From positions 128,001 through 192,000 of IMG/VR virus record IMGVR_UViG_3300027804_002812: a DNA stretch of 64,000 bases, one strand, 5' to 3'. Shown in pieces: positions 8,664 to 45,075 of this stretch (the first letter of the stretch is position 1; each line of letters opens with the position of its first letter). Origin of the DNA: a virus. Taxonomy: Duplodnaviria; Caudoviricetes. Under the pieces are notes generated by a model. It was not told where the DNA came from. It saw only the letters and a program-made list of their open reading frames with translations, and searched no databases. A program made the translations under genes and the position numbers.

Positions 8664-10454
8664 TTATCTCAATTCTCTCAAGTCGAATGTTCTAACTCCA
8701 TCAACTGTGATTCTACCGTAGAATCTGTTATTAACCATTTTCTTAGCGTATCTAGTCATGATACCTTTGATTGGTGTAAAGTTGAATGGATTGTACATTG
8801 TAGGAGTTAATTGTAGAGGTACATACGGTGCGTAGATGTAACCTGTGTCCAATAGAGAAGTTCCTTTGTGACCCATCAATACTTGGTTTGGTGGGAAGTA
8901 AGGGTCTCTATACACTTGGTAACGACCTGCTAATGTACCAACTCTTTCAATACCCATGTTGTACTGGTCCTGCTCAGGAGCCGCGTTTGATACGTGGAAG
9001 TATTCCAAGTCATCAAAGATAGCACTGATTTCAGAAGAAACAACGATCCAGTTAGCTCCACCTCTTAATGTAGATTTGTGGATTTGTGCTGAAATTTGGT
9101 TGATTGCAGTGATAAGAGTTTGGTTCCAATCTTTCTGAGTATAAGGAACTGCACTAGATCCTAATCTCTTCCATCCATTGTAATCCCATCTTAAGTTCCA
9201 AGCTGCTCCTTTTCTAAGGTCTCTCAAGATTTCTCTATCAATTTCAGCCGCAACTTGCTCAGATAACAATGCAGTTAATTCAGCTTCAGCGTCGATGTTG
9301 TGGAATGCCGCAACGTCCTGAGCCATTTCTGGAGACCACTGAGCTCTTAATTTTCTTTCAGTTACAGAAACTGTTACTGACATAAGGTCGAATGAAACTT
9401 CACCAATCTTATCTTCGAATTCCAAGTTCTTATAGATTCTATAAGTAGCTGTGAATGCGTTGTCTGCTGCAGTTGTTGAAGAGAATGTTGAACCTGTGTA
9501 ACCGTCTAATGAACCACCACAAGTAACACATACTGGTACTTGTAAATCAACTTCCAAGTAGATTTTACCTTCAGCGTCACATAAGTTGTCATACTGACCA
9601 CCATCTGTCTTACTGTTAGGGAATACCAACGTAGCGTTGTTGTTACCATACTGTACAATTCCTTTACCATATCTCTGAGTTACAACTCTGAATAAGTAAG
9701 GGTTTGAAGTGTTAGCAGAAGTGTAAACGTTTCCTGCTGCACCATAAACTGTCAAATCAGATAAGAATGCTTCGTTATCCATTGGTTGACCATCAGGACC
9801 GATTAATTTACCTGCTCCGTCAGATGCGAAACCTGACATAACTACTAATACTTTTCTGTAATCAGAAAGAGTATACGCTGAAGGAACCAATTGGTCGGCT
9901 AACCATGCAACAGTTCCAACTTGTGCTGTGATAGCAGAATATTGTCCTTTAGAGTAATCGAACAACCCAGGAGGATCCAAAGCTGGTTCGTTACCTTCGT
10001 AGAATCTATCGTAAAGATCCTTAGTGTTATTATAGTCATAACCACTGTTTGGAGTTTGACCAGCCGCAGCGTTTGGAGAACCATAAGGTGCGTAGTGCTC
10101 AGAAGTACCTGGTTGGTAAGACTGAATGTTAGGTACGAAGTAGAATAATTTACCGATAGGTAAGTTCATAGCTTGTACAGAAACGATATCGTTTGCTAAT
10201 AATTTAGAGAAAACTCTTCTTACGATAGGGAAAACAACTGTTTCAAATGCACCTGTGTCAGATGTAGATGATGCTTCGTTAATTAAGTGAGAAGCTTGGT
10301 TTTCATAAAGTTGAGCTACGTTCTCTCTCATGTGACCTTTAAGACCCTCAAGGAATCCTAATTTGTCCCATTTGTTGATTGTGTCTTCTTTAATAACTTT
10401 AAGGTGCTTAAGACCAATGTTACCAACAAGACCTGATTCTAATAATGCTCCCAT
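8664..10454 (-). CDS. major capsid protein (T4 gp23-like)
   Basis: RKLRAQWSPEMAQDVAAFHNIDAEAELTALLSEQVAAEIDREIL; YAPYVPLQ; KGIMTRYA. Confidence 0.95.
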   Translation of the reverse strand: MGALLESGLVGNIGLKHLKVIKEDTINKWDKLGFLEGLKGHMRENVAQLYENQASHLINEASSTSDTGAFETVVFPIVRRVFSKLLANDIVSVQAMNLPIGKLFYFVPNIQSYQPGTSEHYAPYGSPNAAAGQTPNSGYDYNNTKDLYDRFYEGNEPALDPPGLFDYSKGQYSAITAQVGTVAWLADQLVPSAYTLSDYRKVLVVMSGFASDGAGKLIGPDGQPMDNEAFLSDLTVYGAAGNVYTSANTSNPYLFRVVTQRYGKGIVQYGNNNATLVFPNSKTDGGQYDNLCDAEGKIYLEVDLQVPVCVTCGGSLDGYTGSTFSSTTAADNAFTATYRIYKNLEFEDKIGEVSFDLMSVTVSVTERKLRAQWSPEMAQDVAAFHNIDAEAELTALLSEQVAAEIDREILRDLRKGAAWNLRWDYNGWKRLGSSAVPYTQKDWNQTLITAINQISAQIHKSTLRGGANWIVVSSEISAIFDDLEYFHVSNAAPEQDQYNMGIERVGTLAGRYQVYRDPYFPPNQVLMGHKGTSLLDTGYIYAPYVPLQLTPTMYNPFNFTPIKGIMTRYAKKMVNNRFYGRITVDGVRTFDLRELR

Positions 10455-10500: not shown

Positions 10501-12072
10501 TTACCCAATTTTACTCATCAAATCTTTCATTCTTAAGAATTGAGGATTCTCATAAGTTTTTGATTCAATTAGGGTAGTTGATGAACCTGTAGAAACACTC
10601 TTGTTTAATTTAGTTTCCACTGATTCGTTAATTGGTGTACTTTCAGTTTTAGACAATTCGTCTTTAATCGACTTATAAAGATTTTTAGATTCTTTCAAAG
10701 TATCTACATTATCAAATCTTCTAAGAATGTTAATTTTTTCTTTTTTAGTAGTCGAATGTTCAGTGAATAATCTTGTAGCATATGCCAAGTTTGAATTGAA
10801 GATAGCAACCTCATTAAGTTTTTCTCTGAAAACATTTAATGCTTTTCTGTATTCTTCATTTTTCTCTCTTAACGTTGCAACTTCTGATTCTGAGGATTCA
10901 ACTTTTACTCCGTTTTTACCATAAACATAATTTCTGTTGTTAGTAATACCTTTTCTAAGTCCTCTTCCTTCTTTTGAACCCATTCCATAAGTTCTAGCAG
11001 CTTCTTTGGTTTCTCTTTTTTCAAAACCTGCGTCATCTCTACGAGCCTTAGTAGTTTTAAGATCTTTTGAAGCAATTTTGCCATGTTTCATTGCCAATCT
11101 TTCATCCTCTTTGTCTTTGTATCCTTGACCTTCTTTTGTTTCTGCCTTAACAACTTTGGATTTTTGTTCCATATTTTCGCCTTTCTTGTATTCGAATTTA
11201 GCCTTTCCTGTTCCCATTGTCTTAGGACCTTCTTTTTTGTCCTCTTTGAACCCACCTGCAGCTTTATCTTTGTAAGTGAATTTAGGTCCAGAACCAATTC
11301 CAACACCTTTAGGTTTTACTGTCGATTTTGCCTCTCTAACAGCTCTTCTATGGTTGTAAGATTCGTCCAAATCTTCTTCTTCGTCTTCATCTTCGTCTTC
11401 TTCCATCATGTCTTCATCTCCTTCCATCATGTCTTCATCTTCTTCCATCATGTCTTCATCTCCTTCCATCATGTCGTCTTCCGAATCAAACTCGATTTCG
11501 TACATAACTTCTTCGTCTTGGTCCATGTCGATATCTTCAACATCTCCGTCTTTTGAGAAAATAGCATTGATTACATCTTCTGTATCAACATCCATTTCAT
11601 CGATTTCATCTACGTTCATAGTTTCATCTAATTCTTCCTCTTCCTCGGACTCACCAAGCTTAACTAAATATTCTGAATCAGTGTCAGCATCGGTTAAGTG
11701 AATGTCTTCACCGTCTTTTTTAACGATAATACCATCTTCTTCACCCATAGCTTTGAACACCTTAAGAATTTCTTCGTCTGAAGCGTCAGTTAAATCTATT
11801 GGACTTTCTTCTGAATCCATATCCATGTCCATATCAAATTCCATGTCCATTTCCATATCATCATCATTATCAACAGGCATATCGGTATCGATATCTGTAT
11901 CTAATTCAATCTCATCTTCCATGTCTTGTTCTGACAGAGATTCTTTTACTAATTGGTTGATTTCTTCCTTCATAGTTGAAGCAAGTATTCCTTTTGCGTT
12001 TTGGGCGATTGCTTCTTCAACATTTCTCATTTGAATCAACGCCTCCTGTACTAAGTTTTTATTTTCTTGCAT
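10501..12072 (-). CDS. prohead core/scaffold protein (gp22-like), very acidic
   Basis: directly upstream of the MCP; D/E-rich; C-terminal coiled coil LNEVAIFNSNLAYATRLF. Confidence 0.8.
   Translation of the reverse strand: MQENKNLVQEALIQMRNVEEAIAQNAKGILASTMKEEINQLVKESLSEQDMEDEIELDTDIDTDMPVDNDDDMEMDMEFDMDMDMDSEESPIDLTDASDEEILKVFKAMGEEDGIIVKKDGEDIHLTDADTDSEYLVKLGESEEEEELDETMNVDEIDEMDVDTEDVINAIFSKDGDVEDIDMDQDEEVMYEIEFDSEDDMMEGDEDMMEEDEDMMEGDEDMMEEDEDEDEEEDLDESYNHRRAVREAKSTVKPKGVGIGSGPKFTYKDKAAGGFKEDKKEGPKTMGTGKAKFEYKKGENMEQKSKVVKAETKEGQGYKDKEDERLAMKHGKIASKDLKTTKARRDDAGFEKRETKEAARTYGMGSKEGRGLRKGITNNRNYVYGKNGVKVESSESEVATLREKNEEYRKALNVFREKLNEVAIFNSNLAYATRLFTEHSTTKKEKINILRRFDNVDTLKESKNLYKSIKDELSKTESTPINESVETKLNKSVSTGSSTTLIESKTYENPQFLRMKDLMSKIG
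11390..11480. repeat. 21-bp coding tandem repeat (DEDMMEG/E, about 4 copies) in the scaffold gene
   Basis: repeated cttccatcatgtcttcatct units. Confidence 0.85.
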
Positions 12073-12195
12073 AGAAAAAAATTGTTTAATTTATCATATA
12101 AATAGTACCAAAACTAAAAAAATTCATTTTACGATAGCCCCAAAATAAAAAAAGTGGCCGATTGACCACTTTCTTTGTTTCAGTTTGATTATTGA

Positions 12196-12405
12196 TTACT
12201 CAATTACTTCGTCGATTTTACTTTCAGATACTGCAGTGATTCTCCAATCATGAGTGAATCCTTCATATTTTTTAGTCACCTTAGCTTCCACATCTGTGAC
12301 AGAGTAACCTTTAACCAGTTTCTCTTCTCTAACTTTTTTAATCTTACCTGTGTTTTCATCAGGGAAATCATACTGAATTTTTGCTACAAAATATTTTTCG
12401 TCCAT
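12196..12405 (-). CDS. small protein, DUF4494-like
   Basis: YFVAKIQY...KKVREEKLVKGYSVTDVEAKV pattern. Confidence 0.6.
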   Translation of the reverse strand: MDEKYFVAKIQYDFPDENTGKIKKVREEKLVKGYSVTDVEAKVTKKYEGFTHDWRITAVSESKIDEVIE

Positions 12406-12409
12406 AATT

Positions 12410-13126
12410 TTATTTTCCTAAAAAATCGTCTAATTTTCTCATTAAGTCAACCGACTTTCCAACATAGTCGTTATTTTGTTTAGATTTTATTTCTTCTTCT
12501 AAGTTTTCTTCGTACTTACTTCTATCGTCGGGATTAGAAAATAAATATGCTCCTGGTGTTGATGGAGAAGATACCAAGTCAAAACATATCAGTTCAAAAT
12601 CATCTTGTACTTCATTTCTTTCTCCAACTTTTTTTAATGAACCGACACCTCTTGATGAAATACCTAAGGTCACTCCTTGTCTCATTAAGTTAGCCGCTTG
12701 GTCTCCTTTAGTTGAAACAATACCTCTTTCATGAAACCCTGGAGATGTCAATAATTTGAGTTTTCCCATTAGTATATTTTTATCCCACCATATGTCTGTG
12801 ATGATGTGAGATACTCTGTCTAAGTCTATTAATGATGACTCAGGGTGGTTTAATTCTGATGTGGATAATCCCTTAGAAATTGCTTGCTTATATCTTTCAG
12901 ATTCTCTTTTCAAAATCCTTTCAGGATACGTTCTACCATTTCTATTTGGTGTGTCGTATTTTTGAAGAACCGCATAAAACTCAAATGGATTTCTATAATC
13001 TAAATTGGCGGCCTCTTTCAGAACATCAATATTATGGGTATCTTTTGGAGAAACCCAACCTGCATCCATTTCAATCAATATACCATGGCCAAGTTCGCTT
13101 GCCTCTAAAATTCTTAAATTTTTCAT
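12410..13126 (-). CDS. prohead core protease (T4 gp21-like)
   Basis: NRNGRTYP, ELNHPE (His) and GISSRGVGS (Ser) motifs. Confidence 0.92.
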   Translation of the reverse strand: MKNLRILEASELGHGILIEMDAGWVSPKDTHNIDVLKEAANLDYRNPFEFYAVLQKYDTPNRNGRTYPERILKRESERYKQAISKGLSTSELNHPESSLIDLDRVSHIITDIWWDKNILMGKLKLLTSPGFHERGIVSTKGDQAANLMRQGVTLGISSRGVGSLKKVGERNEVQDDFELICFDLVSSPSTPGAYLFSNPDDRSKYEENLEEEIKSKQNNDYVGKSVDLMRKLDDFLGK

Positions 13127-13165
13127 CTAATCTTTTAAGATAAATATACGGATTTGAATAGTTTG

Positions 13166-13603
13166 TTAGTTTTCGTCTTTTTTAGAAATTGAAAATTCAA
13201 AATATTTGTTTTGAACTACGTTATTTTTGTAGATGGATTTGACTATAGTTTTTATTGATTCTTTTAGTTCATCACACTTGAAATCCATATCACGTAGGGT
13301 ATATAGATTGATTTCCAAATTAAAAAATGATTTTTTCCCTTTAGATATTCCACTTGTCCGAAGGTCCAAATCAACAATATTTTTTTCTTGAAAAATTTTG
13401 CAATCTATTGATTCATAAACGGAATTTTTTATTTCTCGTCCCAAACCTGAGACAACTCGGTTCCAATTATCTAACTCTTCTTTTGGTGTGACCCACGATT
13501 GGATGTTTATGTAAACTGATTTTAAGTTTTTGGAATCTACTGTCCCATACTGTGACTTTATAGGATTGAACAGGTTAAGTTTGACACTTTTTCCTTTTTT
13601 CAT
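13166..13603 (-). CDS. hypothetical protein
   Basis: 145-aa ORF in the head module. Confidence 0.75.
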   Translation of the reverse strand: MKKGKSVKLNLFNPIKSQYGTVDSKNLKSVYINIQSWVTPKEELDNWNRVVSGLGREIKNSVYESIDCKIFQEKNIVDLDLRTSGISKGKKSFFNLEINLYTLRDMDFKCDELKESIKTIVKSIYKNNVVQNKYFEFSISKKDEN

Positions 13604-13635
13604 TAATAATGATATTATGTATGTTTATTGATGAA

Positions 13636-13664
13636 ATAATATACATAATATGTATGATTGTCAA
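13636..13664 (-). promoter_or_regulatory. sigma70-type promoter with a palindrome in its spacer
   Basis: TTGACA-N17-TATTAT on the minus strand; ATACATA-A-TATGTAT at 13641-13655. Confidence 0.55.
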
Positions 13665-13696
13665 AATTTTTTTATATTTATAGATATTTCTAATAT

Positions 13697-13888
13697 ATGA
13701 TAATAATAAAAATCACCCAGGGTAATCCTCTTGAGAAAGCTCTCAAGACCCTAAAGTCAAAAGTAATTAAAACAAAACAAAATCAGATTTTATTTGATAG
13801 AAAGCAATATACAAAAAAATCTGTACTTAGAAGAGCACAGATTCTGAAGGCAAAACATATTCAAAGTCTCAAAGACCAATCAAATTGA
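13697..13888 (+). CDS. rpsU: 30S ribosomal protein bS21 (Bacteroidota type)
   Basis: MIIIKI..G..LEKALKTLKSK...RKQYTKKSVLRRAQILKA; antisense within the head module. Confidence 0.88.
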   Translation: MIIIKITQGNPLEKALKTLKSKVIKTKQNQILFDRKQYTKKSVLRRAQILKAKHIQSLKDQSN

Positions 13889-14578
13889 TTCTTCCAAATT
13901 TTTTAACTTCAAAAAGTTTAATTGGTCGAATTTCTCAGATTTAATTTTGTTAATCGTTTCTGAAATTTTTGTTTTCATGTCCTGAGAATCTTCGTTGTTT
14001 TGAATCTCGGTTAGTTTGGATATCGTACTTTCTCTTAATGTTTCAAATTTAGTTTCCAAAGTTTTAGTGTCTTCAGAAACTATTTGAAAAAATTCTTTTT
14101 TAGAATTTTCATCTAAATTAAGTATATAGTTATTGACGGTTTGGTTTGCCACCGCAACCATAGAACTAATTGGGATATTTATACTTTCCTTAATAGATTC
14201 TTTTGTAGAAGTAATAACTTTCAAAATATTTTTCTTTGCTTTAACTCTTTCGAGTAAATCCACTCCTTGTGTGTAAACTAAGGTATCAATATCGGAATAA
14301 CTGTTTTCAGTTTTTTCGGAAAGTGTGATTGGAAGTTTAATACTTGGCAAAACTTTGTTTAATAGATTAATCCCTTCTTCAATAAAATATTTTGCATCCT
14401 GTTCACTTAACCCTTGGGGTGAACTCAGTTGATCATATATCGCATATGCTTTAGACATAGCTTTATTATTCAAAACGTTGTGTTTGAATTCTCGTAAAGT
14501 CTTCTTGAATTCTATTTCATTTTTGTAGGATTCCAAGAGATTTTTTTCAATTAGGGATTTTACTGTTCCGAAGGTCAT
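13880..14578 (-). CDS. hypothetical protein
   Basis: 232-aa ORF after the portal gene; TATTTAT upstream. Confidence 0.75.
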   Translation of the reverse strand: MTFGTVKSLIEKNLLESYKNEIEFKKTLREFKHNVLNNKAMSKAYAIYDQLSSPQGLSEQDAKYFIEEGINLLNKVLPSIKLPITLSEKTENSYSDIDTLVYTQGVDLLERVKAKKNILKVITSTKESIKESINIPISSMVAVANQTVNNYILNLDENSKKEFFQIVSEDTKTLETKFETLRESTISKLTEIQNNEDSQDMKTKISETINKIKSEKFDQLNFLKLKNLEESI

Positions 14579-14599
14579 TGTGTCTTTTTCAAATAAATA

Positions 14600-16453
14600 T
14601 TATGAATTTAATAACTTATTCAACTCTTTTGAAATTTCTACCAAAGAATCTTGTGCCTGACCCAAATTTATTATCTGTGACCCTTCGATTAAATTATTTT
14701 CTACTAAAATGTTAAGGTCTTTTTTTGTTGATTCAGGTGTTACTTCTGCGGGTGGAGCTTCTTCTGCTCCTCCTCCTGCCGGTGGAGTTTCCGTTCCTAA
14801 ATCGAGACCCGACGGTTCTGACCCGAATGATGGTGGTGACGCCAATTCTTCTCCTCCATCCATAGTTGTTTCCGCCCCAGCAGTTGGAGTTGAACCTGTT
14901 TGACTACCATACAATTTGTCGATATTATCAAACAAACCTGTTTTGGTTATCACAGTTGGAGTTGCTTTAAGTTCTTCTCCAACCGCTCTTTCGATTCTTT
15001 GTTGTTGTAGGTCTAAACGAACTTCATCATCAGACCAACCAAATATGTGTTTCTTAGCCCATGTAGATGAAGTTGCCTGTATTCCATTTCCTGGATCGGC
15101 AACCAAATCCTTGTATAATAATACCTTTTCTTTCCAAACATCAATCTTCAGCAAATCTGCTTGAGTTGATGGGTTTGTTAATCCAAGTGTAAAATTGGAT
15201 AATTCATCTTCGAATCCTAATAAAAATAAATGTACAATGGCAATTTTATTAAGTTCTGCCAACATACTTTTTTGGATTCTATTAATTGTACGAGCAAATC
15301 TAATGTCTTGTAACGCCAAGTTTTTACCATCGCCTACCACTTCTTCAAAACCCAAGAATGCTTTTGGTACTCGTAGAGCAGTTAACAATTTCTTCTGAAT
15401 GTATTCAATGTCGGCAATTTCAGATAAGTTAGTTGCACCTGGCAAAGTATCGATAGGTGTTGGTGCTGCAGGATCTCTTACAGGTATGAAATAATCTTGG
15501 TCAACCGCCATTTGATTGAATCTCATGTCGACATTACCTGTTTTACTATCAACAACTTGCTCTCTTTTGAATTTGTTTGCAACACGTTGTACATATGCTT
15601 CGACATCATCGTCGTTCATGTTACCCACAAAAACTTTGAATATTCTTCTCTCAGGTGCTCTCGAAGTTCTATATATTAACATAGCATCTTCACAAAGGAG
15701 TAATTGTTTCCAAATACGTCTTGCTTTTTCCAACATTGATGTTCCATAAGGAAGTTTTCTATCATCACCCAATAATCTGAAGTGAGCCATCTCCCAAGAT
15801 TGAAACTCCATGTTTTTATTTTTCCATGTAAAGTGTAATGCTTTTCTGTCTTTATCAACTTCATTTTTAACATCAACAGATATTTTACCACTGGCACCAA
15901 CTTCATGTCTTTCAATTTCTATGGTTGGTAATTGTTGACATCCAACAATTCCTTTCTCAGGGTCTAATTTAAGATACACGAAATTGTCTCCATATTTACA
16001 GGTATTCCGTGTCCACATTGGAAGATTGGTATTAACATCTAAAGCATTGTTAAACAAATCGGCTAATACCCCCTTTATTCTTTTTGATTCAGAATAAATT
16101 TGTAATATGAATCCATCTTCATTTGTTGTAGTGGATTCTTCAGCATAAATGTCTAATGCCGCAGAAATCTCAGGAGTGTATTCCATTGATTCATAATCAT
16201 ATTGGGCAGATAATCTTGTTGGTTCATAATAAATTGCTTGAGAATAAAGATTATTCTCAACTTTAGCCCATTGATTGGTAAGATAATATGTTTGTTGTGC
16301 TTGGAGTTTTTCTTTCTCGTATTCCTCTCTACTTTTGGTTCGCAGGAGTTCCTTTTTATCAAACTTGAATGTTGGATAATCTTGATTGAGAAGTGAATTC
16401 GGTCCAAATGTTTGTGACAATCTTTGCCAAACTGTCATATTTTGTTCTGCCAT
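14600..16453 (-). CDS. portal vertex protein (T4 gp20-like)
   Basis: YESMEYTPEISAALDIYAEE; EDAMLIYRTSRAPERRIF; DIEYIQKKLLTALRVP. Confidence 0.93.
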   Translation of the reverse strand: MAEQNMTVWQRLSQTFGPNSLLNQDYPTFKFDKKELLRTKSREEYEKEKLQAQQTYYLTNQWAKVENNLYSQAIYYEPTRLSAQYDYESMEYTPEISAALDIYAEESTTTNEDGFILQIYSESKRIKGVLADLFNNALDVNTNLPMWTRNTCKYGDNFVYLKLDPEKGIVGCQQLPTIEIERHEVGASGKISVDVKNEVDKDRKALHFTWKNKNMEFQSWEMAHFRLLGDDRKLPYGTSMLEKARRIWKQLLLCEDAMLIYRTSRAPERRIFKVFVGNMNDDDVEAYVQRVANKFKREQVVDSKTGNVDMRFNQMAVDQDYFIPVRDPAAPTPIDTLPGATNLSEIADIEYIQKKLLTALRVPKAFLGFEEVVGDGKNLALQDIRFARTINRIQKSMLAELNKIAIVHLFLLGFEDELSNFTLGLTNPSTQADLLKIDVWKEKVLLYKDLVADPGNGIQATSSTWAKKHIFGWSDDEVRLDLQQQRIERAVGEELKATPTVITKTGLFDNIDKLYGSQTGSTPTAGAETTMDGGEELASPPSFGSEPSGLDLGTETPPAGGGAEEAPPAEVTPESTKKDLNILVENNLIEGSQIINLGQAQDSLVEISKELNKLLNS

Positions 16454-16489: not shown

Positions 16490-18250
16490 TTATTTAGCAC
16501 CAAATAACCAACCATATTTTTGATAATCTGCTTTACTAGCACCATTATTATTTAGGTTTGGGTCTCTACCCATTTGAGGTACCATTGGATTAAAAAATTC
16601 TGAAGTATTTTTATTCTCATTCACAACTGATGCCCATGAATTTAACATTGCCTTAGTATGGTTAACAACTTTTGTTAATGATTGAAATGATTTTTCTGCA
16701 ATATAAATTGCCATTGATAATCCCATAATACAGTCATCATGTTGACCTTTTTGGTGATCAGGTCTTCCATTTATATAGACGAAGGTATTCATCTCGTTAT
16801 ATGTCCTATGAGAATATATTTTGAATCCATGTCTAACACCTTCTTCAAATGCGGCAATAATTTGAACTCTTTTAGTATTGAAGTTAATTCCAGGAATTCT
16901 GTCATTTATCTTTGGATCCCACTTCCACTTATTAGATGTGTCAACCCCATCAACATAAAGTCCTGGTTGGTATTGTAATTCTTGCATTTTTCTTGCAGTC
17001 GAAACTCCCATACCACCAGTTATATCAATTACACAAAATGCATTGTACATTGTTCCCCATTTATATGCAATCTCAGCTAATACATCTGGAGGAATTTTTC
17101 CAACGTATTCTAATACTTGTTCTCGTTCATTAAAGTCAATAATTTGTATGGATGAAAAATCTTCTGAATCACCACGAGAAACGTCAACACCCATTACATA
17201 CTTGTGACCATTTACAGGTTCCTTGAAAATCCATAAAGCATTACCCATAAGTTTTGCTTGGGGTGTTTGTAATTGATTTTTAGCAATGTTCTGCATCAAA
17301 TCAGAATCGAATACGTTATCACCCGACCCCAAGAAATTACATTCCAATTCTTGAGCAACTTTACGTCGGTCATACTTAAGTTTCTTTACCATCCCCTCGA
17401 ACCATGATGAACAAGGTTTGTAACCCTTTTCAATATAATCCGTAACTATGCCATGGTCTCTTTCGTATGGACTATCTGTACTTAAATCAATAACGGTATC
17501 TATTGGATAATCTTCTCTGTTGAGTAAATAATGAACCAAATCATTTGTTTTGACCATATACAAATCCTTTGTATATCTAGGGTCTCTGTACCAAAACATT
17601 TCTGAGATTTTGAAATCATTCATACCTCTTAATGCTTGGTCGTAGATTTCATAATAGATTGGGTCGTATCCGTTTGGAGTTGATACCACAATAACTTTAC
17701 CACCTGTAGATAGTGATGCCATACAAGCTGACCAGAAGTCACCATCAGCCTCGATAAATGCCGCTTCATCAAAAATAAGAATAGTAGGAGTATAACCTCT
17801 CAACGCATCTTTAGATGTTGCAACAGATTTTACTTCACATCCATTATTGAGTTTGAAATGTCTTTGAGAATTTTTTTCAGCAGAAAATGCTATCCCCACC
17901 CAAGCAGGCCACTGTTCAATGAATCCCCTAATCTTATTTGCCATTTCAACTGAGGTATCCAATTTGTTGGCAATGATTAGAATCTTTTCAGGTTTTTCCT
18001 TTCTAGCAAAGGCGAGTTTTTTTGAAGACCAAGCGGCGGTCACGGTTGACACACCTGCTTGTCTATATTTTAAGGCAATATTTTCGTTGTATTTTTCGTA
18101 GTCCTCGAGTAGTGAAACTTGGTCGGGAAAAAGTTCTAACGGAACATACTTTGAAACTGTATTATCGTATGTCTGTAAATAAGTACGAAGTGCATAAGGG
18201 GTATTCCTCATACACTTCGTATATTCTATAATTAATTGTTCTTTATTCAC
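16490..18250 (-). CDS. terminase large subunit (T4 gp17-like)
   Basis: KYRQAGVST Walker A, IFDEAAF Walker B, VSTPNG, GVDVSRGDSEDFS nuclease, HDDCIM. Confidence 0.95.
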   Translation of the reverse strand: MNKEQLIIEYTKCMRNTPYALRTYLQTYDNTVSKYVPLELFPDQVSLLEDYEKYNENIALKYRQAGVSTVTAAWSSKKLAFARKEKPEKILIIANKLDTSVEMANKIRGFIEQWPAWVGIAFSAEKNSQRHFKLNNGCEVKSVATSKDALRGYTPTILIFDEAAFIEADGDFWSACMASLSTGGKVIVVSTPNGYDPIYYEIYDQALRGMNDFKISEMFWYRDPRYTKDLYMVKTNDLVHYLLNREDYPIDTVIDLSTDSPYERDHGIVTDYIEKGYKPCSSWFEGMVKKLKYDRRKVAQELECNFLGSGDNVFDSDLMQNIAKNQLQTPQAKLMGNALWIFKEPVNGHKYVMGVDVSRGDSEDFSSIQIIDFNEREQVLEYVGKIPPDVLAEIAYKWGTMYNAFCVIDITGGMGVSTARKMQELQYQPGLYVDGVDTSNKWKWDPKINDRIPGINFNTKRVQIIAAFEEGVRHGFKIYSHRTYNEMNTFVYINGRPDHQKGQHDDCIMGLSMAIYIAEKSFQSLTKVVNHTKAMLNSWASVVNENKNTSEFFNPMVPQMGRDPNLNNNGASKADYQKYGWLFGAK

Positions 18251-38621: not shown

Positions 38622-38622
38622 G

Positions 38623-38696
38623 TTGGAATAGGTGGACTCGAACCACCAACCTTTCGCGTATCAGACGAATGCTCTAACCAATTGAGCTATATTCCA
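38623..38696 (-). tRNA. tRNA-Ile(GAT)
   Basis: cloverleaf; loop CT-GAT-AC. Confidence 0.9.
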
Positions 38697-38701
38697 TTAT
38701 G

Positions 38702-38852
38702 CTGTAAGAGATGGATTCGAACCACCACGAGGAGATTCAACAAATAACATATCGCCGGCCGGCTGGTGGTCTACCCCCTCATATTATTTGTCTATTTCTA
38801 ATTCCCCACCCCCGAGACAGGAGGGCTTGTCTGCCAATTTCAACACCTTACA
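38702..38852 (-). tRNA. tRNA-Asp(GTC)-like RNA with about 82-nt variable arm
   Basis: TGTAAGG/TCTTACA acceptor, G73, CCCTC-CTGTCTC-GGGGG anticodon arm, GGTGG-TTCGAAT-CCATC T-arm. Confidence 0.65.
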
Positions 38853-38857
38853 AAAAG

Positions 38858-38942
38858 CAGAGAGTATTGGATTCGAACCAATGCATCCCTTTCGAGATGA
38901 CAGATTAGCAATCTGCTCCTTTAACCACTCAGGCAACTCTCT
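38858..38942 (-). tRNA. tRNA-Ser(GCT)
   Basis: type II cloverleaf; loop TT-GCT-AA; G73. Confidence 0.9.
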
Positions 38943-38946
38943 ATTG

Positions 38947-39017
38947 TTATCCTACAAGGATTCGAACCTCGAACGACTGAACCAAAATCAGTAGTGTTAC
39001 CGTTACACCATAGGATA
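38947..39017 (-). tRNA. tRNA-Gln(TTG)
   Basis: ACTGA-TTTTGGT-TCAGT. Confidence 0.9.
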
Positions 39018-39098
39018 GTTTAGACAGACCTTAGGAGACGTATTATTCTCTTCATTATCCTTGTACTTTAACACCGTGGGAAGCGTGTGTCTGTCTTG

Positions 39099-39180
39099 TG
39101 GGAACGATAGGACTCGAACCTATGAACTCCGAAGAGAGGAGATTTACAGTCTCCGGCAATTGCCGCTATGCGACGTTCCC
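39099..39180 (-). tRNA. tRNA-Tyr(GTA)
   Basis: GGAGA-CTGTAAA-TCTCC; long variable arm. Confidence 0.9.
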
Positions 39181-39313
39181 AAAATAAGGAAAGGAGAAGA
39201 TGGTTCCGTGGACATCTCCTTTTACGATTGGCGTTACTACGATGATTCCAAACTCCAAATGTACCACCTCCATCATCAGGTTAACATACATTCCTTCCCC
39301 AATCAACCTTTAG

Positions 39314-39386
39314 CACAGGAGGAGAGAATCGAACTCCCGACAACTGGTTTTGGAGACCAGTGCTCTTCCATCTGAGCTACTCCTGT
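39314..39386 (-). tRNA. tRNA-Trp(CCA)
   Basis: CTGGT-CTCCAAA-ACCAG. Confidence 0.9.
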
Positions 39387-39397
39387 ATTCAACAAAG

Positions 39398-40027
39398 TTA
39401 AATAAATTTGTTCATCAAATTTAACTCTTTTATCAAATCTTTACAATAAAATTTATGACCATTTTCGGACCAATGTCCATCAGATATACGTCCATTTGTT
39501 TCTTCTTTGATGGTTTGATACTTTTGAAATAAACCATTTTGATTCCACCTCCAAATATGTAAAATCATATCTTTCATTACAAATTTTATCATATTCTCCC
39601 AAGCCATACGTTCTTCCTCTATTCCTTTATTCGGATCACGATGTTCTCCCGTAACCCTATTTAGAAGCAAGTTGAGAATAGAATCACTATCAATCCCCCC
39701 CCAATCAATTTGTTCCATCACATTGAATGATCTCCACTCACCATTCTCATCAGTTATTCGAATTCTTGGTTCAGGTGCCCATCCAACAAAAACAATATCA
39801 TTCGGTTTTATTTCTGTAATATTTTCACAAAAAGATTGGAGTATTGAATAGTTATCCCATCCTCCTTGAGCAAAATTTTTGTAATCATATCCCAATTCTT
39901 CAGAAACCAATTTCCCCCATGATTTTGGGAAATATCCTTTCAAATCCTTGTAAAGTTCGAAATTACCAATTCGGTTATTTTCGAAATCCACAGAAAATGA
40001 ATCACCGAATACCCATACTGTTTTCAT
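39398..40027 (-). CDS. SGNH/GDSL-like hydrolase
   Basis: VFGDSF block I; DGHW near the C-terminus. Confidence 0.6.
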   Translation of the reverse strand: MKTVWVFGDSFSVDFENNRIGNFELYKDLKGYFPKSWGKLVSEELGYDYKNFAQGGWDNYSILQSFCENITEIKPNDIVFVGWAPEPRIRITDENGEWRSFNVMEQIDWGGIDSDSILNLLLNRVTGEHRDPNKGIEEERMAWENMIKFVMKDMILHIWRWNQNGLFQKYQTIKEETNGRISDGHWSENGHKFYCKDLIKELNLMNKFI

Positions 40028-40031
40028 GTGT

Positions 40032-40448
40032 TTATTTTTTCAACAACCAAGACGAAGATTGGATTTTATCGCCAAGTCCATCAATCAACTTAATCCCTAA
40101 CCAATCACATATGTGTCTCTCAGGGATGCTATTGTTAGTTTGGTCTCCACCATTGGCGAATAAGTATTCATCCTCTCTATCCCCCAAAGTATAAATCGTT
40201 TCGAGTGTTTTACAAACAGTTCTATCTGTATCTATGGAGGGGAAAACTCTATCAACCATTTTCAAATTTTGGACGATAAACATTCTCTCATCTTCACTCT
40301 GAAACTCTTTACTACCTTTCAACTCTCTCTGTTTGTCGTTATTGACGATAACATAGAGTTTATCACCATGTTCTTTGGACTTATTGAAATATTCAATATG
40401 TCCCTTATGAACAGGATTAAAATAACCGCTTACAATTACAATTTTCAT
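40032..40448 (-). CDS. cytidylyl/adenylyltransferase (HxGH family)
   Basis: VSGYFNPVHKGH; FANGGD; SSSW. Confidence 0.85.
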   Translation of the reverse strand: MKIVIVSGYFNPVHKGHIEYFNKSKEHGDKLYVIVNNDKQRELKGSKEFQSEDERMFIVQNLKMVDRVFPSIDTDRTVCKTLETIYTLGDREDEYLFANGGDQTNNSIPERHICDWLGIKLIDGLGDKIQSSSWLLKK

Positions 40449-40464
40449 ATTCTAAAATTAAATG

Positions 40465-40538
40465 AGGTCAGAATCGGATTCGAACCGATGGATACTTGTT
40501 TTGCAGACAAGCCCCTTAAGCCACTTGGGTATCTGACC
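40465..40538 (-). tRNA. tRNA-Cys(GCA)
   Basis: CTTGT-CTGCAAA-ACAAG; U73. Confidence 0.9.
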
Positions 40539-40547
40539 ATTTATAAT

Positions 40548-40615
40548 GTGTCAGGACGGGTTTCTAACCCGCTCCTCAGTTAACTACTGTGTGCTGCCAT
40601 TTACACCACCTGACT
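40548..40615 (-). ncRNA. minimal tRNA-like RNA (truncated anticodon arm)
   Basis: GTCAGG/CCTGAC acceptor, D- and T-arms present, only an 18-nt centre. Confidence 0.55.
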
Positions 40616-40680
40616 AAATTTAGATTTCTAAAACTCATCCTCGAAAGGGTAAAGAAACTCCATCTTATTTGTTTTTTGCG

Positions 40681-40801
40681 TAGTCAGGACAGGATTCGAA
40701 CCTGTACGAAGAGTATGTGTGTCTCTTCTCCTATGGGTTTACCTCAAGGGTTTCCACCTGCCATCGCACGTTGTAGCGTCTACCAATTTCGCCACCTGAC
40801 T
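40681..40801 (-). ncRNA. tRNA-like RNA, Leu-type frame with 70-nt structured centre
   Basis: AGTCAGG/CCTGACT-A, GCGAAATTGGTAGACGC D-arm, ACAGG-TTCGAAT-CCTGT T-arm. Confidence 0.7.
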
Positions 40802-40885
40802 ATATTAGGTTAGAGGCTGTTAACCATAAGGTCGTACGAAACATCACTTGTACTTCGTGTCAGGGAATTTCCCATACCTCTAAAG

Positions 40886-41028
40886 TAGTCAGGACAGGAT
40901 TCGAACCTGTATGATTGAAAAGACCAATTTTATTCGGTTCTTCGGGATGGTCAACATATTTAATGTGATGTCTCACGGCCCGATTAATCAATCACCCATT
41001 ACACGTCTACCAATTTCGCCACCTGACC
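40886..41028 (-). ncRNA. tRNA-like RNA, Leu-type frame with 92-nt structured centre
   Basis: same near-identical 5' and 3' blocks as 40681-40801, unrelated centre. Confidence 0.7.
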
Positions 41029-41147
41029 AATGTTTTTAGTTACTTTATCAACACTTCTCCAAGAACCACCTCGGCCAGTTTATATCAATTTCACTTAGGT
41101 TACGTCATGATTCTGCTGGTTAAGCGTCCTCAATCTAAACCCGTTTG

Positions 41148-41221
41148 TACTCCGTACGGGACTCGAACCCGTAAGCTCTCCCGTGAAAGGGGAGTGTCCT
41201 AACCAATTAGACGAACGGAGC
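41148..41221 (-). tRNA. tRNA-Glu(TTC)
   Basis: CTCCC-CTTTCAC-GGGAG. Confidence 0.9.
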
Positions 41222-41233
41222 TTGTTTGTCTTA

Positions 41234-41241
41234 CAAAGATA
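41234..41241 (-). promoter_or_regulatory. Bacteroidota -7 box for the tRNA array
   Basis: TATCTTTG on the minus strand, 12 nt before tRNA-Glu. Confidence 0.7.
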
Positions 41242-41273
41242 CTACAATATTTCAAAGAACAAAAACATGTCAT

Positions 41274-41308
41274 AAAAAAACCCCAAACTTTTTTTAAGAG
41301 TTCGGGGT
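41274..41308 (-). terminator. intrinsic terminator
   Basis: ACCCCGAACT/AGTTTGGGGT stem plus T7. Confidence 0.75.
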
Positions 41309-41345
41309 CTAAAAATTTAATTTATCTAAATTAAAAAATTACTTT

Positions 41346-41435
41346 CTATGACATCCGAACTACAGGGCAAATACCTTCATACCAACATTTCTCTTGTTGA
41401 CTATTACTGTTAATATGTTGACCTGTAGTTCTCAT
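41346..41435 (-). CDS. 29-aa leader-like peptide inside a large hairpin
   Basis: MRTTGQHINSNSQQEKCWYEGICPVVRMS; own TTGACA-type promoter and downstream terminator. Confidence 0.4.
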   Translation of the reverse strand: MRTTGQHINSNSQQEKCWYEGICPVVRMS

Positions 41436-41492
41436 TGTATTGATAATTACTTCTAATGTATGAAATATTTTTATTTTGTCAAATGTTTTTTG

Positions 41493-41566
41493 TATCCCCG
41501 ACACGATTCGAACGTGTGACCCCAAACTTAGAAGGTTTGCGCTCTATCCAGCTGAGCTACGGAGAC
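41493..41566 (-). tRNA. tRNA-Arg(TCT)
   Basis: CAAAC-CTTCTAA-GTTTG. Confidence 0.9.
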
Positions 41567-41571
41567 AAATA

Positions 41572-41733
41572 TTACTGACCGTATATTTTTTTAGCAAGTT
41601 CTTCGGCTTCAGCCAGAAGTTTGTCAGATGCGGTTCTGTTTGTATGAGATAATTTATAAGCATCTGCCATCATTTTCTCATAAGTTTCCTGTAGTTTTTC
41701 TTTTTCTGTTTTCTTCTTAAATAATCCGAACAT
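41572..41733 (-). CDS. Lacal_2735-family-like small protein (53 aa, below the ORF-track cutoff)
   Basis: MFGLFKKKTEKEKLQETYEKMMADAYKLSHTNRTASDKLLAEAEEL. Confidence 0.7.
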   Translation of the reverse strand: MFGLFKKKTEKEKLQETYEKMMADAYKLSHTNRTASDKLLAEAEELAKKIYGQ

Positions 41734-41771
41734 AATATGTGAATAACACTATCGTCTTTGAAAGTTTTTAT

Positions 41772-42023
41772 TTAATCTTTATGCCTTGCGGCGTTCAATC
41801 TACTTTCAAGTTTATCAAGTCGTGAATCTATTGTTCGATAAATATCGTCAATAATTCTATCACGATCTCTCATTTGATTTTCAATTTCTCTTGCGAGAAA
41901 CTGATTTATTTGTTTAATTTCTTCCTTCTGTTTATTCACTCTAACAAAAGCAATAACCGCAACCACTGCCACAGCAATGACCACAACTATAGACATTCCT
42001 AAAATAAATGATACTAAATCCAT
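41772..42023 (-). CDS. membrane-anchored coiled-coil protein
   Basis: N-terminal TM helix; AAGGAG SD upstream; flanked by an inverted repeat. Confidence 0.7.
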   Translation of the reverse strand: MDLVSFILGMSIVVVIAVAVVAVIAFVRVNKQKEEIKQINQFLAREIENQMRDRDRIIDDIYRTIDSRLDKLESRLNAARHKD

Positions 42024-42070
42024 ATAATTTTCTCCTTTATTCCAAAGAACGATAGTGTTATACTCTACAT

Positions 42071-42709
42071 TTATGTTACTCTACCTGGTTTCCAACCGTC
42101 GGGAATAATATCTTCTTTTTTTATTTTTCTATTTTCATCACCATTTGTAATCCATTTTGTACCAAATTGTGAGTTAGATTTTCCGATACCCTTTCCTTTT
42201 TGAACTTCTCTCATTTTTCTTTTGGTCTCCTCGGTGTGAAGCCTATTTCTGAATGTTGCGTGATCAAAATTACTTTTTTGGAATCCCAATTTAATTCGAT
42301 TCGAGAACCACTTATTCCATTCGTCATTCATCAGAAGTTTTTGAACTTCTGGTGACCCTTTAATTAGATTCTTTTTTCCTGCTTCTGAAAATTTATATTT
42401 ATGATTATCGTTTACAAATCCACCAGATCCACCAGGTTTCAGATTCATACACATCGGGTCTTTCAATAAATTTTCATTTACTAATTCTTTTTCTCTTAAA
42501 GACAAAGAAAGCCTATTTGGGAAAAATTCTAAAATTTCGAGCTTAAAATTTTCTTTACCATTTTTCCTAATAGACCTTCTTAATCTAATTCCACTCCCTA
42601 AATAACCATCATTCAGATTATCACTTGAGTGCATACCTATATAAAACTTTCCATTTTTAAGGTTTGTGGTTTTATATATGTAATGATACTTTTTTTGTGG
42701 TCTTGCCAT
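42071..42709 (-). CDS. GIY-YIG homing endonuclease (Seg-like, NUMOD3-type tail)
   Basis: YIYKTTNLKNGKFYIG; YLGSG; HTEETKRKM. Confidence 0.88.
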   Translation of the reverse strand: MARPQKKYHYIYKTTNLKNGKFYIGMHSSDNLNDGYLGSGIRLRRSIRKNGKENFKLEILEFFPNRLSLSLREKELVNENLLKDPMCMNLKPGGSGGFVNDNHKYKFSEAGKKNLIKGSPEVQKLLMNDEWNKWFSNRIKLGFQKSNFDHATFRNRLHTEETKRKMREVQKGKGIGKSNSQFGTKWITNGDENRKIKKEDIIPDGWKPGRVT

Positions 42710-42760
42710 AACTTATACATTATATATATAAATATAGCAAAGTACAAAAAAGTACTCCGG

Positions 42761-42843
42761 TATCAGAGATGGGAGTCGAACCCACACGAGCTTTCGCCCA
42801 GCAGATTTTAAGTCTGCCATGTATACCATTCCATCACTCCGAC
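42761..42843 (-). tRNA. tRNA-Leu(TAA)
   Basis: GCAGA-CTTAAAA-TCTGC; long variable arm; A73. Confidence 0.9.
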
Positions 42844-42869
42844 ATTATTCTACAAATATAATGAAAGTT

Positions 42870-43520
42870 TTAGATACTTTCAACCCGATGTTTCATAATT
42901 TCACAATACTTCTCATCGATTTCATAACTAATAGAGTTGAATCCCAACTCTTGAGCAACCTTACTTGTTGTTCCACTTCCACCGAATACATCGATAATTG
43001 TTTGATTTGGTTGTGCGGTTGTCAAAATAATTCTTCGGATTACTTCCTCAGGAATTTGACAAGGGTGCTCGGTCTTTTCCTTGCTAACATTTTTGACTTG
43101 GTTGATTTCCCACCAATCATAAAGTTTTGCACCAGTCTTTCCTTCAGCAATTCTTTTTTGAATACGTTTGTCTTTGAGATTTTTATATTCCTGTCTGACT
43201 TTCCTAAAGTCAGGTTTACAACCCCACCATGATATCAATCGACTTTGTTTTCCTGTGTTGGAATTATACACCCAACAAACAACCTGTTCACATTTGGCGT
43301 TGATTGCCTTTGGTAACAAGTTGATTGTTTCTTCGGGGTAATGAATGATGACACAAGGGGTTGGGATTTTGGATAATAATTCGATATAATCCTCTTCGCT
43401 TAATTTGTCTTTATATTCGTTGTAAGAATATTCTTGATTATAAGGTGGGTCGGTTATTGTTAATCCTGTTGGTATGTCGCAGTTTCTAAAATCTTCGTTA
43501 ATAATTGTTGTTTCCACCAT
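42870..43520 (-). CDS. N6-A/N4-C DNA methyltransferase (beta class)
   Basis: DPPY, then HPCQIP, then DVFGGSGTT. Confidence 0.88.
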   Translation of the reverse strand: MVETTIINEDFRNCDIPTGLTITDPPYNQEYSYNEYKDKLSEEDYIELLSKIPTPCVIIHYPEETINLLPKAINAKCEQVVCWVYNSNTGKQSRLISWWGCKPDFRKVRQEYKNLKDKRIQKRIAEGKTGAKLYDWWEINQVKNVSKEKTEHPCQIPEEVIRRIILTTAQPNQTIIDVFGGSGTTSKVAQELGFNSISYEIDEKYCEIMKHRVESI

Positions 43521-43537
43521 AAATTTAATAAATCATT

Positions 43538-44236: not shown

Positions 44237-44247
44237 ACAAATAAATA

Positions 44248-44601
44248 TCAGTCTTCGAATTCTAATTTAATTGTCTTCAACATCCATTGTGGTCTTTGAC
44301 TGGTCGCAACATTATTAACCCATTCTTTTGCGGATGGAATGTAGTTGTTACAATCTTCCTTTACATGTTGTTCACCAACATATCGGGTATAAACTGTCTT
44401 ACCATCCGAGTTTTTGAATTCGGTACCAAACCTTTTTTCCATTTCAAATATTCCTTCACTATGATGTCTAAACATTCTATGTAGGGAATCACCAAACCAT
44501 GACTTGGTTTCGTCTAACCATTCATGCAAATGAATGTAGTCCTCAGGTTTTCCACCAAACTTTTTGGCGGATGATTTTGCATGTAAGTTTGGATGTGCCA
44601 T
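44248..44601 (-). CDS. DUF6915-like His-rich protein
   Basis: HPNLHAKSSAKKFGG...RHHSEGIF...EQHVKED. Confidence 0.65.
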   Translation of the reverse strand: MAHPNLHAKSSAKKFGGKPEDYIHLHEWLDETKSWFGDSLHRMFRHHSEGIFEMEKRFGTEFKNSDGKTVYTRYVGEQHVKEDCNNYIPSAKEWVNNVATSQRPQWMLKTIKLEFED

Positions 44602-44722
44602 TATGATTTAATTTGTGAAAAAGATTGTAACGTCTGTACGGTTTGTTTCCAAGGATAATCCTTCAGTTTCCATTTCATTCTTAGCGTCCGTTCCGTCATT
44701 CTTTCGAATCGTTACTATATTG

Positions 44723-45058: not shown

Positions 45059-45075
45059 GTATAATTAAATATCTG

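What the first reader, a model, noticed from the sequence alone, without database searches (positions are those of the whole stretch)
13697..13888. Phage bS21 with His at the position of the ASD-sequestering Tyr54
Seen: bS21 lies antisense inside the head module, has TATTTATA upstream, and residue 54 is His (KAKHIQ). Known: bS21 next to capsid genes has been reported in freshwater Bacteroidota phages. In Flavobacterium, the bS21 C-terminus (Tyr54 in KAAYIQ, recalled from memory) helps occlude the anti-Shine-Dalgarno. Inference: swapping in the phage bS21 late in infection could retune initiation.
Basis: partly seen in the sequence, partly recalled or inferred. Interest (0 to 1): 0.7.

Follow-up and report, generated by a model that had tools for sequence, protein, structure and literature searches.

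The report
Phage bS21 with His54, already described
A giant freshwater phage of Bacteroidota carries its own copy of ribosomal protein bS21 with histidine where the host protein has a key tyrosine, but this gene, its odd placement and the histidine variant are already published, and nothing in the sequences suggests that the histidine changes how ribosomes choose messages.

Summary
Window 13697-13888 (+) encodes a 63-aa bS21 (Pfam PF01165 above cut-off). A gapless alignment to F. johnsoniae bS21 (PDB 7JIL) puts His54 on Tyr54. The gene sits on the opposite strand inside a T4-like head module of a 326-kb phage.

It is not new. Chen et al. 2022 (PMC9723584) described this phage group, the reverse-strand bS21, and "in a few cases His54". 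First readers of this scan noted the same thing on other DNA, unchecked.

What I add:
- His54 is common in one subclade: 69 His and 75 Tyr among 145 distinct close homologues.
- Tyr and His switched at least 7 times by single C/T transitions, three times on otherwise identical proteins.
- His54 is rare in bacteria: 2 of 401 Bacteroidota genomes sampled.

The idea that His54 retunes Shine-Dalgarno (SD) use finds no support. The phage's 372 start regions are A-rich and G-poor with almost no SD. SD-like motifs are equally rare beside His and Tyr alleles (1/92 against 1/90).

Most likely His54 is an accepted substitute that keeps the anti-SD hidden. Y54H itself has never been tested.

Side finds: a genome-wide TATTTAT promoter-like motif, and a conserved terminator-like hairpin for the convergent gene embedded in the bS21 coding sequence.

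The parts
13697..13888 (+). phage bS21 gene (63 aa)
   Evidence: Pfam PF01165 at 30.6 bits. Gapless match to F. johnsoniae bS21 7jil_z, E 2.4e-8. Purifying selection among relatives.
13856..13858 (+). codon 54, CAT = His, at the position of F. johnsoniae Tyr54
   Evidence: In 79 IMG/VR relatives: CAT 29, CAC 5, TAT 32, TAC 13.
13675..13682 (+). TATTTATA, a copy of the phage-wide promoter-like motif, 15 nt before the ATG
   Evidence: TATTTAT has 94 sense hits in the 100-nt upstream regions against 12.7 expected. Here it is present only in this genome and a few relatives; most have TATTTGT or TACTTGT.
13683..13691 (+). GATATTTCT, an element conserved upstream of bS21 in all relatives (one mismatch to the TATTTAT motif), 5 nt before the ATG
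13660..13673 (+). GTCAAAATTTTTTT, conserved in all relatives. Its complement gives TTGACA-17-TATTAT on the minus strand, facing the divergent 145-aa gene.
13806..13845 (-). Terminator-like hairpin (12 pairs) plus T7 run, inside the bS21 ORF (codons 39-50) and 35 nt after the stop of the convergent 232-aa gene
   Evidence: Found. Folds at -13 to -20 kcal/mol in nearly all of the 34 distinct relatives' sequences. Synonymous change is suppressed in the stem codons: 3 changes in 7 codons against 96 in 24, p = 0.003.
13880..14578 (-). 232-aa hypothetical protein, convergent with bS21 and overlapping its 3' end by 9 nt
   Evidence: No Pfam or PHROG hit. Conserved position in relatives, with a TATTTAT motif upstream.
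13166..13603 (-). 145-aa hypothetical protein, divergent from bS21
   Evidence: No family hit. Conserved position in relatives.
14600..16453 (-). T4-like portal protein
   Evidence: Pfam Portal_T4, E 4.3e-77.
12410..13126 (-). prohead core protease
   Evidence: Pfam Peptidase_S77, E 4.6e-22; phrog_207.
10501..12072 (-). acidic, scaffold-like protein (523 aa)
   Evidence: Composition and position. No family hit. High depth in RNA-library contigs.
8664..10454 (-). major head protein
   Evidence: phrog_138, E 7.8e-67.
16490..18250 (-). large terminase
   Evidence: phrog_2, E 1.2e-38.

Best explanation
This is the phage-encoded bS21 of the published group of roughly 300-kb freshwater myoviruses predicted to infect Bacteroidota. 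It is made from its own promoter region on the strand opposite the head genes. By inference, it replaces or supplements host bS21 on the 30S platform while structural proteins are being made. His54 is a common alternative to Tyr54 that has arisen repeatedly. Most likely its ring still stacks on A1534, so the anti-SD tail stays hidden. That suits a phage whose own mRNAs have A-rich, SD-less start regions. Unlike host rpsU, the phage gene has no SD, so it would escape the host's bS21 feedback loop. Shown here: gene identity, residue alignment, placement, distribution and switching of His/Tyr, SD-less start regions. Inferred: incorporation into ribosomes, timing, and retained stacking by His.
For: Identity and residue alignment.

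Same group as Chen et al. 2022: 326,291-bp genome rated 100% complete, GC 33.7%, 12 tRNAs in the window, same gene order with bS21 on the reverse strand.

Position 54 accepts essentially only Tyr or His: 75 Tyr, 69 His and 1 Cys among 145 distinct close homologues. Among 126 aligned representatives of 50%-identity clusters: Tyr 115, His 5, Phe 4. The surrounding residues Q48, I49, L50, A52 and Q56 are invariant.

At least 7 Tyr/His changes are forced by well-supported branches of a tree built on 2.6 kb of flanking DNA. Three protein backgrounds are identical except for residue 54.

His54 also occurs in chromosomal rpsU of Bacteroidota, in the usual rpsU-integrase-tuf-secE-nusG context. A living host ribosome therefore tolerates it.

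Phage start regions: G is 7-12% at -20 to -4, A is enriched, and GGAG occurs in 11 of 372. SD-like motifs are equal beside His and Tyr alleles, 1/92 against 1/90.

No SD before the phage bS21, whereas 79 of 80 Flavobacteriaceae rpsU genes have a strong one.
Against: Y54A in F. johnsoniae raises SD-led translation about 3-fold (PMC9976891), so this position does matter. Imidazole offers a smaller stacking surface than phenol, and Y54H has never been measured.

His is far commoner in this phage subclade (about half) than in bacteria (2 of 401 genomes). Pure neutrality does not obviously predict that.

The one verified bacterial His54 lineage lacks the strong rpsU SD. That could mean its anti-SD handling differs.

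Incorporation of this protein into a Bacteroidota ribosome has not been shown by anyone.
Confidence: 0.6

Rival explanations
1. His54 weakens stacking on A1534. Ribosomes carrying the phage protein would then partly expose the anti-SD and shift initiation toward SD-bearing messages.
For: Y54A partly frees the anti-SD: 3-fold more translation of an SD-led reporter, with SD-less reporters unaffected (PMC9976891). His is enriched in phages relative to bacteria. A handful of phage genes do have good SD motifs, for example window 41772-42023 (AAGGAG) and genome 205094-205795 (AAGGAGG).
Against: Almost all phage genes, including all head genes, lack SD and are G-depleted upstream. SD-like motif frequency is the same next to His and Tyr alleles. 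GGAG upstream of 11 of 372 genes is about what base composition alone would give, by my own rough arithmetic rather than a tool result. Freeing the anti-SD would boost host rpsU, which carries a strong SD (PMC9976891), and so bring back host bS21. His and Tyr swap on identical protein backgrounds among near-identical phages.
Confidence: 0.12
2. The Tyr/His switch is adaptive toggling. Each state would fit a different host ribosome (variants of the 16S 3' tail, bS18 or bS6) or a different condition, so residue 54 would track host range.
For: Residue 54 shows 7 amino-acid changes, tied for the most in the gene (with 58 and 61), yet only two states, inside an otherwise invariant block. That count lies in the upper range of synonymous changes at other sites of the gene. 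His is confined to one subclade, and the outer clades are all Tyr.
Against: No host is known for any of these phages. The pattern is equally what neutral interchange between two acceptable residues would give. Recombination among co-occurring phages could inflate the count of switches. No other bS21 site was seen to change together with residue 54 (by inspection only).
Confidence: 0.18
3. The protein does not act on the ribosome in the way proposed. For example, it is packaged in the virion, binds phage RNA, or is a passenger with little effect.
For: No incorporation data exist for any Bacteroidota phage bS21. Chen et al. themselves raise packaging as an option. Cover in RNA-library contigs is low compared with the capsid genes, though contig depth is a poor measure.
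Against: There is strong purifying selection and a conserved position across hundreds of relatives. The C-terminal half, which is the rRNA-binding part in 7JIL, is 64% identical to F. johnsoniae. A marine phage bS21 does enter E. coli ribosomes (cited in PMC9976891).
Confidence: 0.08

Closest known systems
bS21-encoding freshwater Bacteroidetes myoviruses, clades a-e (Chen et al. 2022, ISME Commun 2:31, PMC9723584)
   Same: Genome size (326 kb against 293-331 kb), GC (33.7% against 31.0-33.7%) and tRNA complement. bS21 on the reverse strand between two conserved hypothetical genes, with TerL, portal, prohead protease and MCP within a few genes. Freshwater origin. Tyr or, in some members, His at position 54.
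   Different: Nothing essential. That paper counts 54 of 61 with Tyr. In the much larger sets searched here, His reaches about half in one subclade and switches repeatedly.
Flavobacterium johnsoniae bS21 (RpsU; PDB 7JIL chain z; Jha et al. 2021, McNutt et al. 2023)
   Same: Same length class (63 against 64 aa), gapless alignment, 46% identity overall and 64% in the C-terminal part. Ile55 and a non-basic C-terminus are retained.
   Different: His instead of Tyr54. The N-terminal helix is divergent (KTLKSKVIKTKQ against KRYKRKFDKTGT), as Chen et al. noted. The strong SD that host rpsU uses for feedback control is absent.
Other phage-encoded bS21, e.g. Pelagibacter phage HTVC008M (Mizuno et al. 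2019, as cited in PMC9976891)
   Same: A phage copy of the last-assembling, exchangeable small-subunit protein, proposed to redirect host ribosomes.
   Different: Those hosts use SD sequences. Here the host group hides its anti-SD and bS21 is part of the lid, so residue 54 has a role that it lacks elsewhere.

Membership tests
Ribosomal protein bS21 (Pfam PF01165) | Profile score above the curated cut-off | tested here: met
   30.6 bits against 27; 29.5 bits in the genome search.
Ribosomal protein bS21 (Pfam PF01165) | Full-length collinear alignment with a bS21 seen in a ribosome structure | tested here: met
   Residues 1-61 on 1-61 of 7jil_z, E 2.4e-8; also 9i5v_9, E 1.4e-4.
Ribosomal protein bS21 (Pfam PF01165) | Physical presence in 30S subunits | not testable with these tools
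   Needs ribosome purification from infected cells.
Bacteroidia-type, anti-SD-sequestering bS21 (Jha et al. 2021) | Signature Tyr at position 54 stacking on A1534 | tested here: not met
   His at 54. Aromatic character is kept; whether stacking is kept is unknown.
Bacteroidia-type, anti-SD-sequestering bS21 (Jha et al. 2021) | Ile55 contact and a C-terminal part much less basic than in other phyla | tested here: met
   I55 is present. Residues 55-63 (IQSLKDQSN) carry one Lys and one Asp (feature from PMC7797042).
Bacteroidia-type, anti-SD-sequestering bS21 (Jha et al. 2021) | Strong SD upstream of the gene (autoregulation, many Flavobacteriia) | tested here: not met
   No SD in the 45 nt upstream, here or in the relatives examined. 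79 of 80 Flavobacteriaceae rpsU genes have one.
bS21 phages of Chen et al. 2022 | bS21 on the reverse strand between two conserved hypothetical genes, with TerL, portal, protease and MCP within about five genes | tested here: met
   Same order in seven relatives inspected.
bS21 phages of Chen et al. 2022 | Genome of about 293-331 kb, GC 31-34%, 5-25 tRNAs, standard code, freshwater | tested here: met
   326,291 bp; GC 0.337 and 93% coding under table 11; 12 tRNAs in the window; held by freshwater and lake RNA libraries.
bS21 phages of Chen et al. 2022 | Bacteroidota host | tested here: inconclusive
   Indirect only. A-rich, SD-less start regions. Among solved structures the nearest bS21 is that of F. 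johnsoniae. No CRISPR or host data.

The most novel reading that the evidence does not exclude
Residue 54 of phage bS21 is a two-state switch under diversifying selection. Tyr and His would give different strengths of anti-SD occlusion, or fit different host 30S platforms. Repeated Tyr/His flips in one phage subclade would then record an arms race over control of the host ribosome's message choice, with the host's SD-driven rpsU feedback loop as the counter-move.
Probability: 0.15. Interest if true: 0.7.

Novelty: already known. Interest (0 to 1): 0.3.

Why it matters
Bacteroidota ribosomes ignore Shine-Dalgarno sequences because bS21, bS18 and bS6 hide the anti-SD tail. A phage that brings its own bS21 touches exactly that mechanism. 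If the His variant altered occlusion, it would be a natural tool for studying how message choice is set. As it stands, the gene, its placement and the His variant are published, and the sequence evidence points to an accepted substitute. The one new point with some value is the population picture: His is frequent and recurrent in one phage subclade but very rare in bacteria. That makes a Y54H test in F. johnsoniae cheap and worth doing.

Tried and rejected
- DNA search of the head module against 50,697 GenBank phage records found no match, so no cultured relative is on hand.
- Rfam scan of 12000-15000 at E up to 1 found nothing.
- My first pattern search of 401 Bacteroidota genomes for KPSV..KAxH was mis-framed by one base. 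It gave only noise, 13 hits against 14 in the reversed control, and is void. The corrected search is.
- An alignment of phage plus bacterial bS21 was too diverse for the genome-contig scan. A bacterial-only alignment was used instead, so the 80 loci are the nearest relatives of a Flavobacteriaceae-type bS21, not of the phage protein.
- Host-type promoter boxes (TAnnTTTG) are not enriched upstream of phage genes: 39 seen against 33 expected. I therefore dropped the idea that bS21 is read from a host-type promoter, although several relatives have TATATTTG there.
- The sigma-70 consensus scan gave no more sites than shuffles do.
- RNA-library contigs: one 438-nt contig (13516-13953) covers the whole bS21 gene with no difference inside the ORF. 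Contigs show neither strand, nor transcript ends, nor level, and DNA carry-over cannot be excluded. I do not count this as proof of expression.
- Two metagenomic bacterial-type bS21 with His54 and a strong SD (P0195, P0233) lie on contigs of 1.3-1.5 kb and have odd C-terminal extensions. I do not rely on them.
- No structure or complex prediction was run. A 63-aa protein that folds only on rRNA would not be informative.

Full report
**What is there**

Window 13697-13888 (+) is an ATG-started ORF of 63 codons. It scores above Pfam's curated cut-off for Ribosomal_S21: 30.6 bits against 27. Its best match among all PDB chains is bS21 of the Flavobacterium johnsoniae ribosome (7jil_z, E 2.4e-8). 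The alignment runs from residue 1 to 61 of both proteins without a gap. His54 (codon CAT, 13856-13858) therefore falls exactly on Tyr54: KAKHIQ against KAAYIQ. Identity is 28/61 overall, 14/39 in the N-terminal part and 14/22 in the C-terminal part.

Every neighbouring gene is on the other strand:
- major head protein, 8664-10454
- an acidic scaffold-like protein, 10501-12072
- a DUF4494 protein, 12196-12405
- prohead protease, 12410-13126
- a 145-aa hypothetical, 13166-13603
- a 232-aa hypothetical, 13880-14578
- T4-like portal, 14600-16453
- large terminase, 16490-18250

The window is part of a 326,291-bp IMG/VR virus record rated complete. Its GC is 33.7% and the window holds 12 tRNA genes.

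**What is already known**

In the 2.8-A F. johnsoniae 70S structure, Tyr54 of bS21 stacks on A1534, where the 16S 3' tail turns toward bS18 and bS6. It is a signature residue of the phylum (PMC7797042). Y54A raises translation of SD-led reporters about 3-fold and leaves SD-less ones alone (PMC9976891).

The phage side is also published. Chen et al. 2022 (PMC9723584) describe 47 genomes plus IMG/VR relatives of 293-331 kb and GC 31-33.7%. In these, bS21 lies on the reverse strand between two conserved hypothetical genes, among TerL, portal, protease and MCP. [quoted passage not shown] They read this as conserved stacking, and propose that the phage protein substitutes into Bacteroidetes ribosomes late in infection. 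The present locus meets every feature of that group. No later experimental work on these phage proteins turned up in the library. First readers of this scan made the same note on this stretch and on two other genomes, all unchecked.

**How His54 is distributed**

The protein has 778 relatives at E<=0.001 among near-length proteins and at least 564 matching stretches in IMG/VR.

- Among the 120 best hits, residue 54 is His in 59, Tyr in 59 and Cys in 1.
- Among 145 distinct sequences from both sets it is Tyr 75, His 69, Cys 1.
- In 79 IMG/VR loci the codons are CAT 29, CAC 5, TAT 32, TAC 13. Each switch is a single first-position transition.
- A maximum-likelihood tree of 60 loci was built on 2.6 kb of DNA around the gene, with codon 54 masked. 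It places all His alleles in one 44-row clade (30 His, 14 Tyr), and the outer clades are all Tyr. Well-supported branches force at least 7 Tyr/His changes.
- Three protein backgrounds are identical except for residue 54.
- On the same tree, site 54 has 7 amino-acid changes, tied for the most in the gene (with 58 and 61), yet only two states. Meanwhile Q48, I49, L50, A52 and Q56 never change, even though L50 and A52 show 8-9 synonymous changes.

Farther afield, 126 aligned representatives of 50%-identity clusters show Tyr 115, His 5, Phe 4.

His54 does exist in bacteria. One such protein is encoded in two NCBI assemblies, one a 2.2-Mb sequence, in the usual rpsU-integrase-tuf-secE-nusG context. 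A back-translated pattern found the same lineage in 2 of 401 Bacteroidota species genomes; the other 9 hits were at the level of the reversed control. All 80 Flavobacteriaceae rpsU genes fetched have Tyr. So His54 is rare in hosts and frequent in one phage subclade.

**Does His54 go with a change in SD use?**

I called 372 genes on the whole phage genome, covering 93% of it. Upstream of their starts G falls to 7-12% from -20 to -4. A rises to about 50% at -13 to -9, -6 and -3. GGAG occurs in 11 and GGAGG in 2 of the 372 regions. By my own rough arithmetic, 11 is about what base composition alone would give. This is the Bacteroidia type of start region.

In the head-module loci of relatives, SD-like 4-mers occur in 1 of 92 distinct start regions next to His alleles and 1 of 90 next to Tyr alleles. 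G fractions are 9.1% and 10.1%. A phage that freed the anti-SD would gain nothing for its own messages. It would also stimulate host rpsU, which has a strong SD in 79 of 80 Flavobacteriaceae and is translated faster by ribosomes with a free anti-SD (PMC9976891).

The phage bS21 gene itself has no SD, so it lies outside that feedback loop. These results argue against the retuning idea but do not exclude a quantitative effect. Y54H has never been measured, and the only verified bacterial His54 lineage happens to lack the strong rpsU SD.

**Best reading**

The gene is a member of a described family of phage bS21 genes. Position 54 accepts Tyr or His and almost nothing else. This points to selection for a ring that can stack and hydrogen-bond, with the two residues close to interchangeable.

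I put about 0.6 on this reading: a conservative substitute that keeps the anti-SD hidden, with the phage protein acting on the 30S platform as Chen et al. propose. I put 0.18 on host- or condition-specific toggling, 0.12 on weakened occlusion, and 0.08 on a role off the ribosome. Incorporation, timing and stacking are inferred, not shown.

**The upstream motif**

TATTTATA at 13675-13682 is real. It belongs to a motif, [A/G]TATTTAT[A/T], with 94 sense-strand hits in the 100-nt upstream regions against 12.7 expected from the genome. No second upstream box accompanies it. Spacing to the ATG falls into two classes, 4-6 nt and 12-20 nt. The motif is perfectly conserved before the scaffold, protease, 232-aa and portal genes in seven relatives from all clades.

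Before bS21, however, most relatives read TATTTGT or TACTTGT. What is conserved there is GTCAAAATTTTTTT (13660-13673) and GATATTTCT (13683-13691), one mismatch from the motif.

**RNA libraries**

Four freshwater metatranscriptome libraries hold parts of the head module. Contig depth over the capsid and scaffold genes is in the hundreds to over a thousand, and in single digits elsewhere. One 438-nt contig spans 13516-13953 with no difference inside the bS21 ORF. Contigs cannot show strand, ends or level, so this only says that the allele circulates in lakes and is probably transcribed.

**Seen in passing**

On the minus strand, 35 nt after the stop of the convergent 232-aa gene, there is a 12-pair hairpin followed by seven T (13845 down to 13806). 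It lies inside bS21 codons 39-50. It folds in nearly all of the 34 distinct relatives' sequences. The seven invariant-residue codons that form its arms show 3 synonymous changes in total, against 96 in the other 24 invariant-residue codons (Mann-Whitney p = 0.003). It looks like the intrinsic terminator of the portal/232-aa transcript written into the bS21 coding sequence. No terminator follows bS21 on its own strand.

**Verdict**

The finding is already known. Interest is modest, resting on the frequency and recurrence of the His allele and on the ease of a Y54H test.

Noticed in passing
window 13806-13845 (minus strand): A conserved 12-pair hairpin plus T7 run inside the bS21 ORF, 35 nt after the stop of the convergent 232-aa gene. 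Synonymous change is suppressed in the stem codons (3 changes in 7 codons against 96 in 24, p = 0.003). It is probably the terminator of the portal/232-aa transcript embedded antisense in bS21.
   Followed up: partly
whole genome G000; in the window e.g. 12098, 13140, 13675, 14593, 16482, 23353, 24140: The single-box promoter-like motif [A/G]TATTTAT[A/T] has 94 sense hits in the 100 nt upstream of genes against 12.7 expected. Spacing to the ATG is bimodal, 4-6 or 12-20 nt, which would mean leaderless or very short-leader mRNAs. It is conserved before the scaffold, protease, 232-aa and portal genes in all relatives checked. It is the reverse complement of the T4 late box TATAAATA.
   Followed up: partly
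window 41772-42023 (minus strand); G000 205094-205795 (minus strand): Among 372 genes only a handful have a good SD at proper spacing. Two examples are an 83-aa ORF in the tRNA region (AAGGAG; no PHROG hit) and a 233-aa ORF outside the window (AAGGAGG). Another first-reader note (e1-5335761) flags the former.
   Followed up: partly
L083 5960-6198, L084, L183, L184: A bacterial lineage whose chromosomal rpsU has His54 (KAAHKQ) lacks the strong SD that 79 of 80 Flavobacteriaceae rpsU genes carry. Its upstream reads AAAATGAGATGTAAAAT. This may be worth a look for how it handles the anti-SD.
   Followed up: partly
window 13636-13664 (minus strand): TTGACA-17-TATTAT (11 of 12 matches to the sigma-70 consensus) faces the divergent 145-aa gene. 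Its TTGAC is the complement of the GTCAA conserved in all relatives. The scan as a whole found no more sites than shuffles.
   Followed up: no
window 38622-45149: A cluster of 12 tRNA genes, all on the minus strand: Ile, Ser x2, Gln, Tyr, Trp, Cys, Glu, Arg, Leu, Thr, Met.
   Followed up: no
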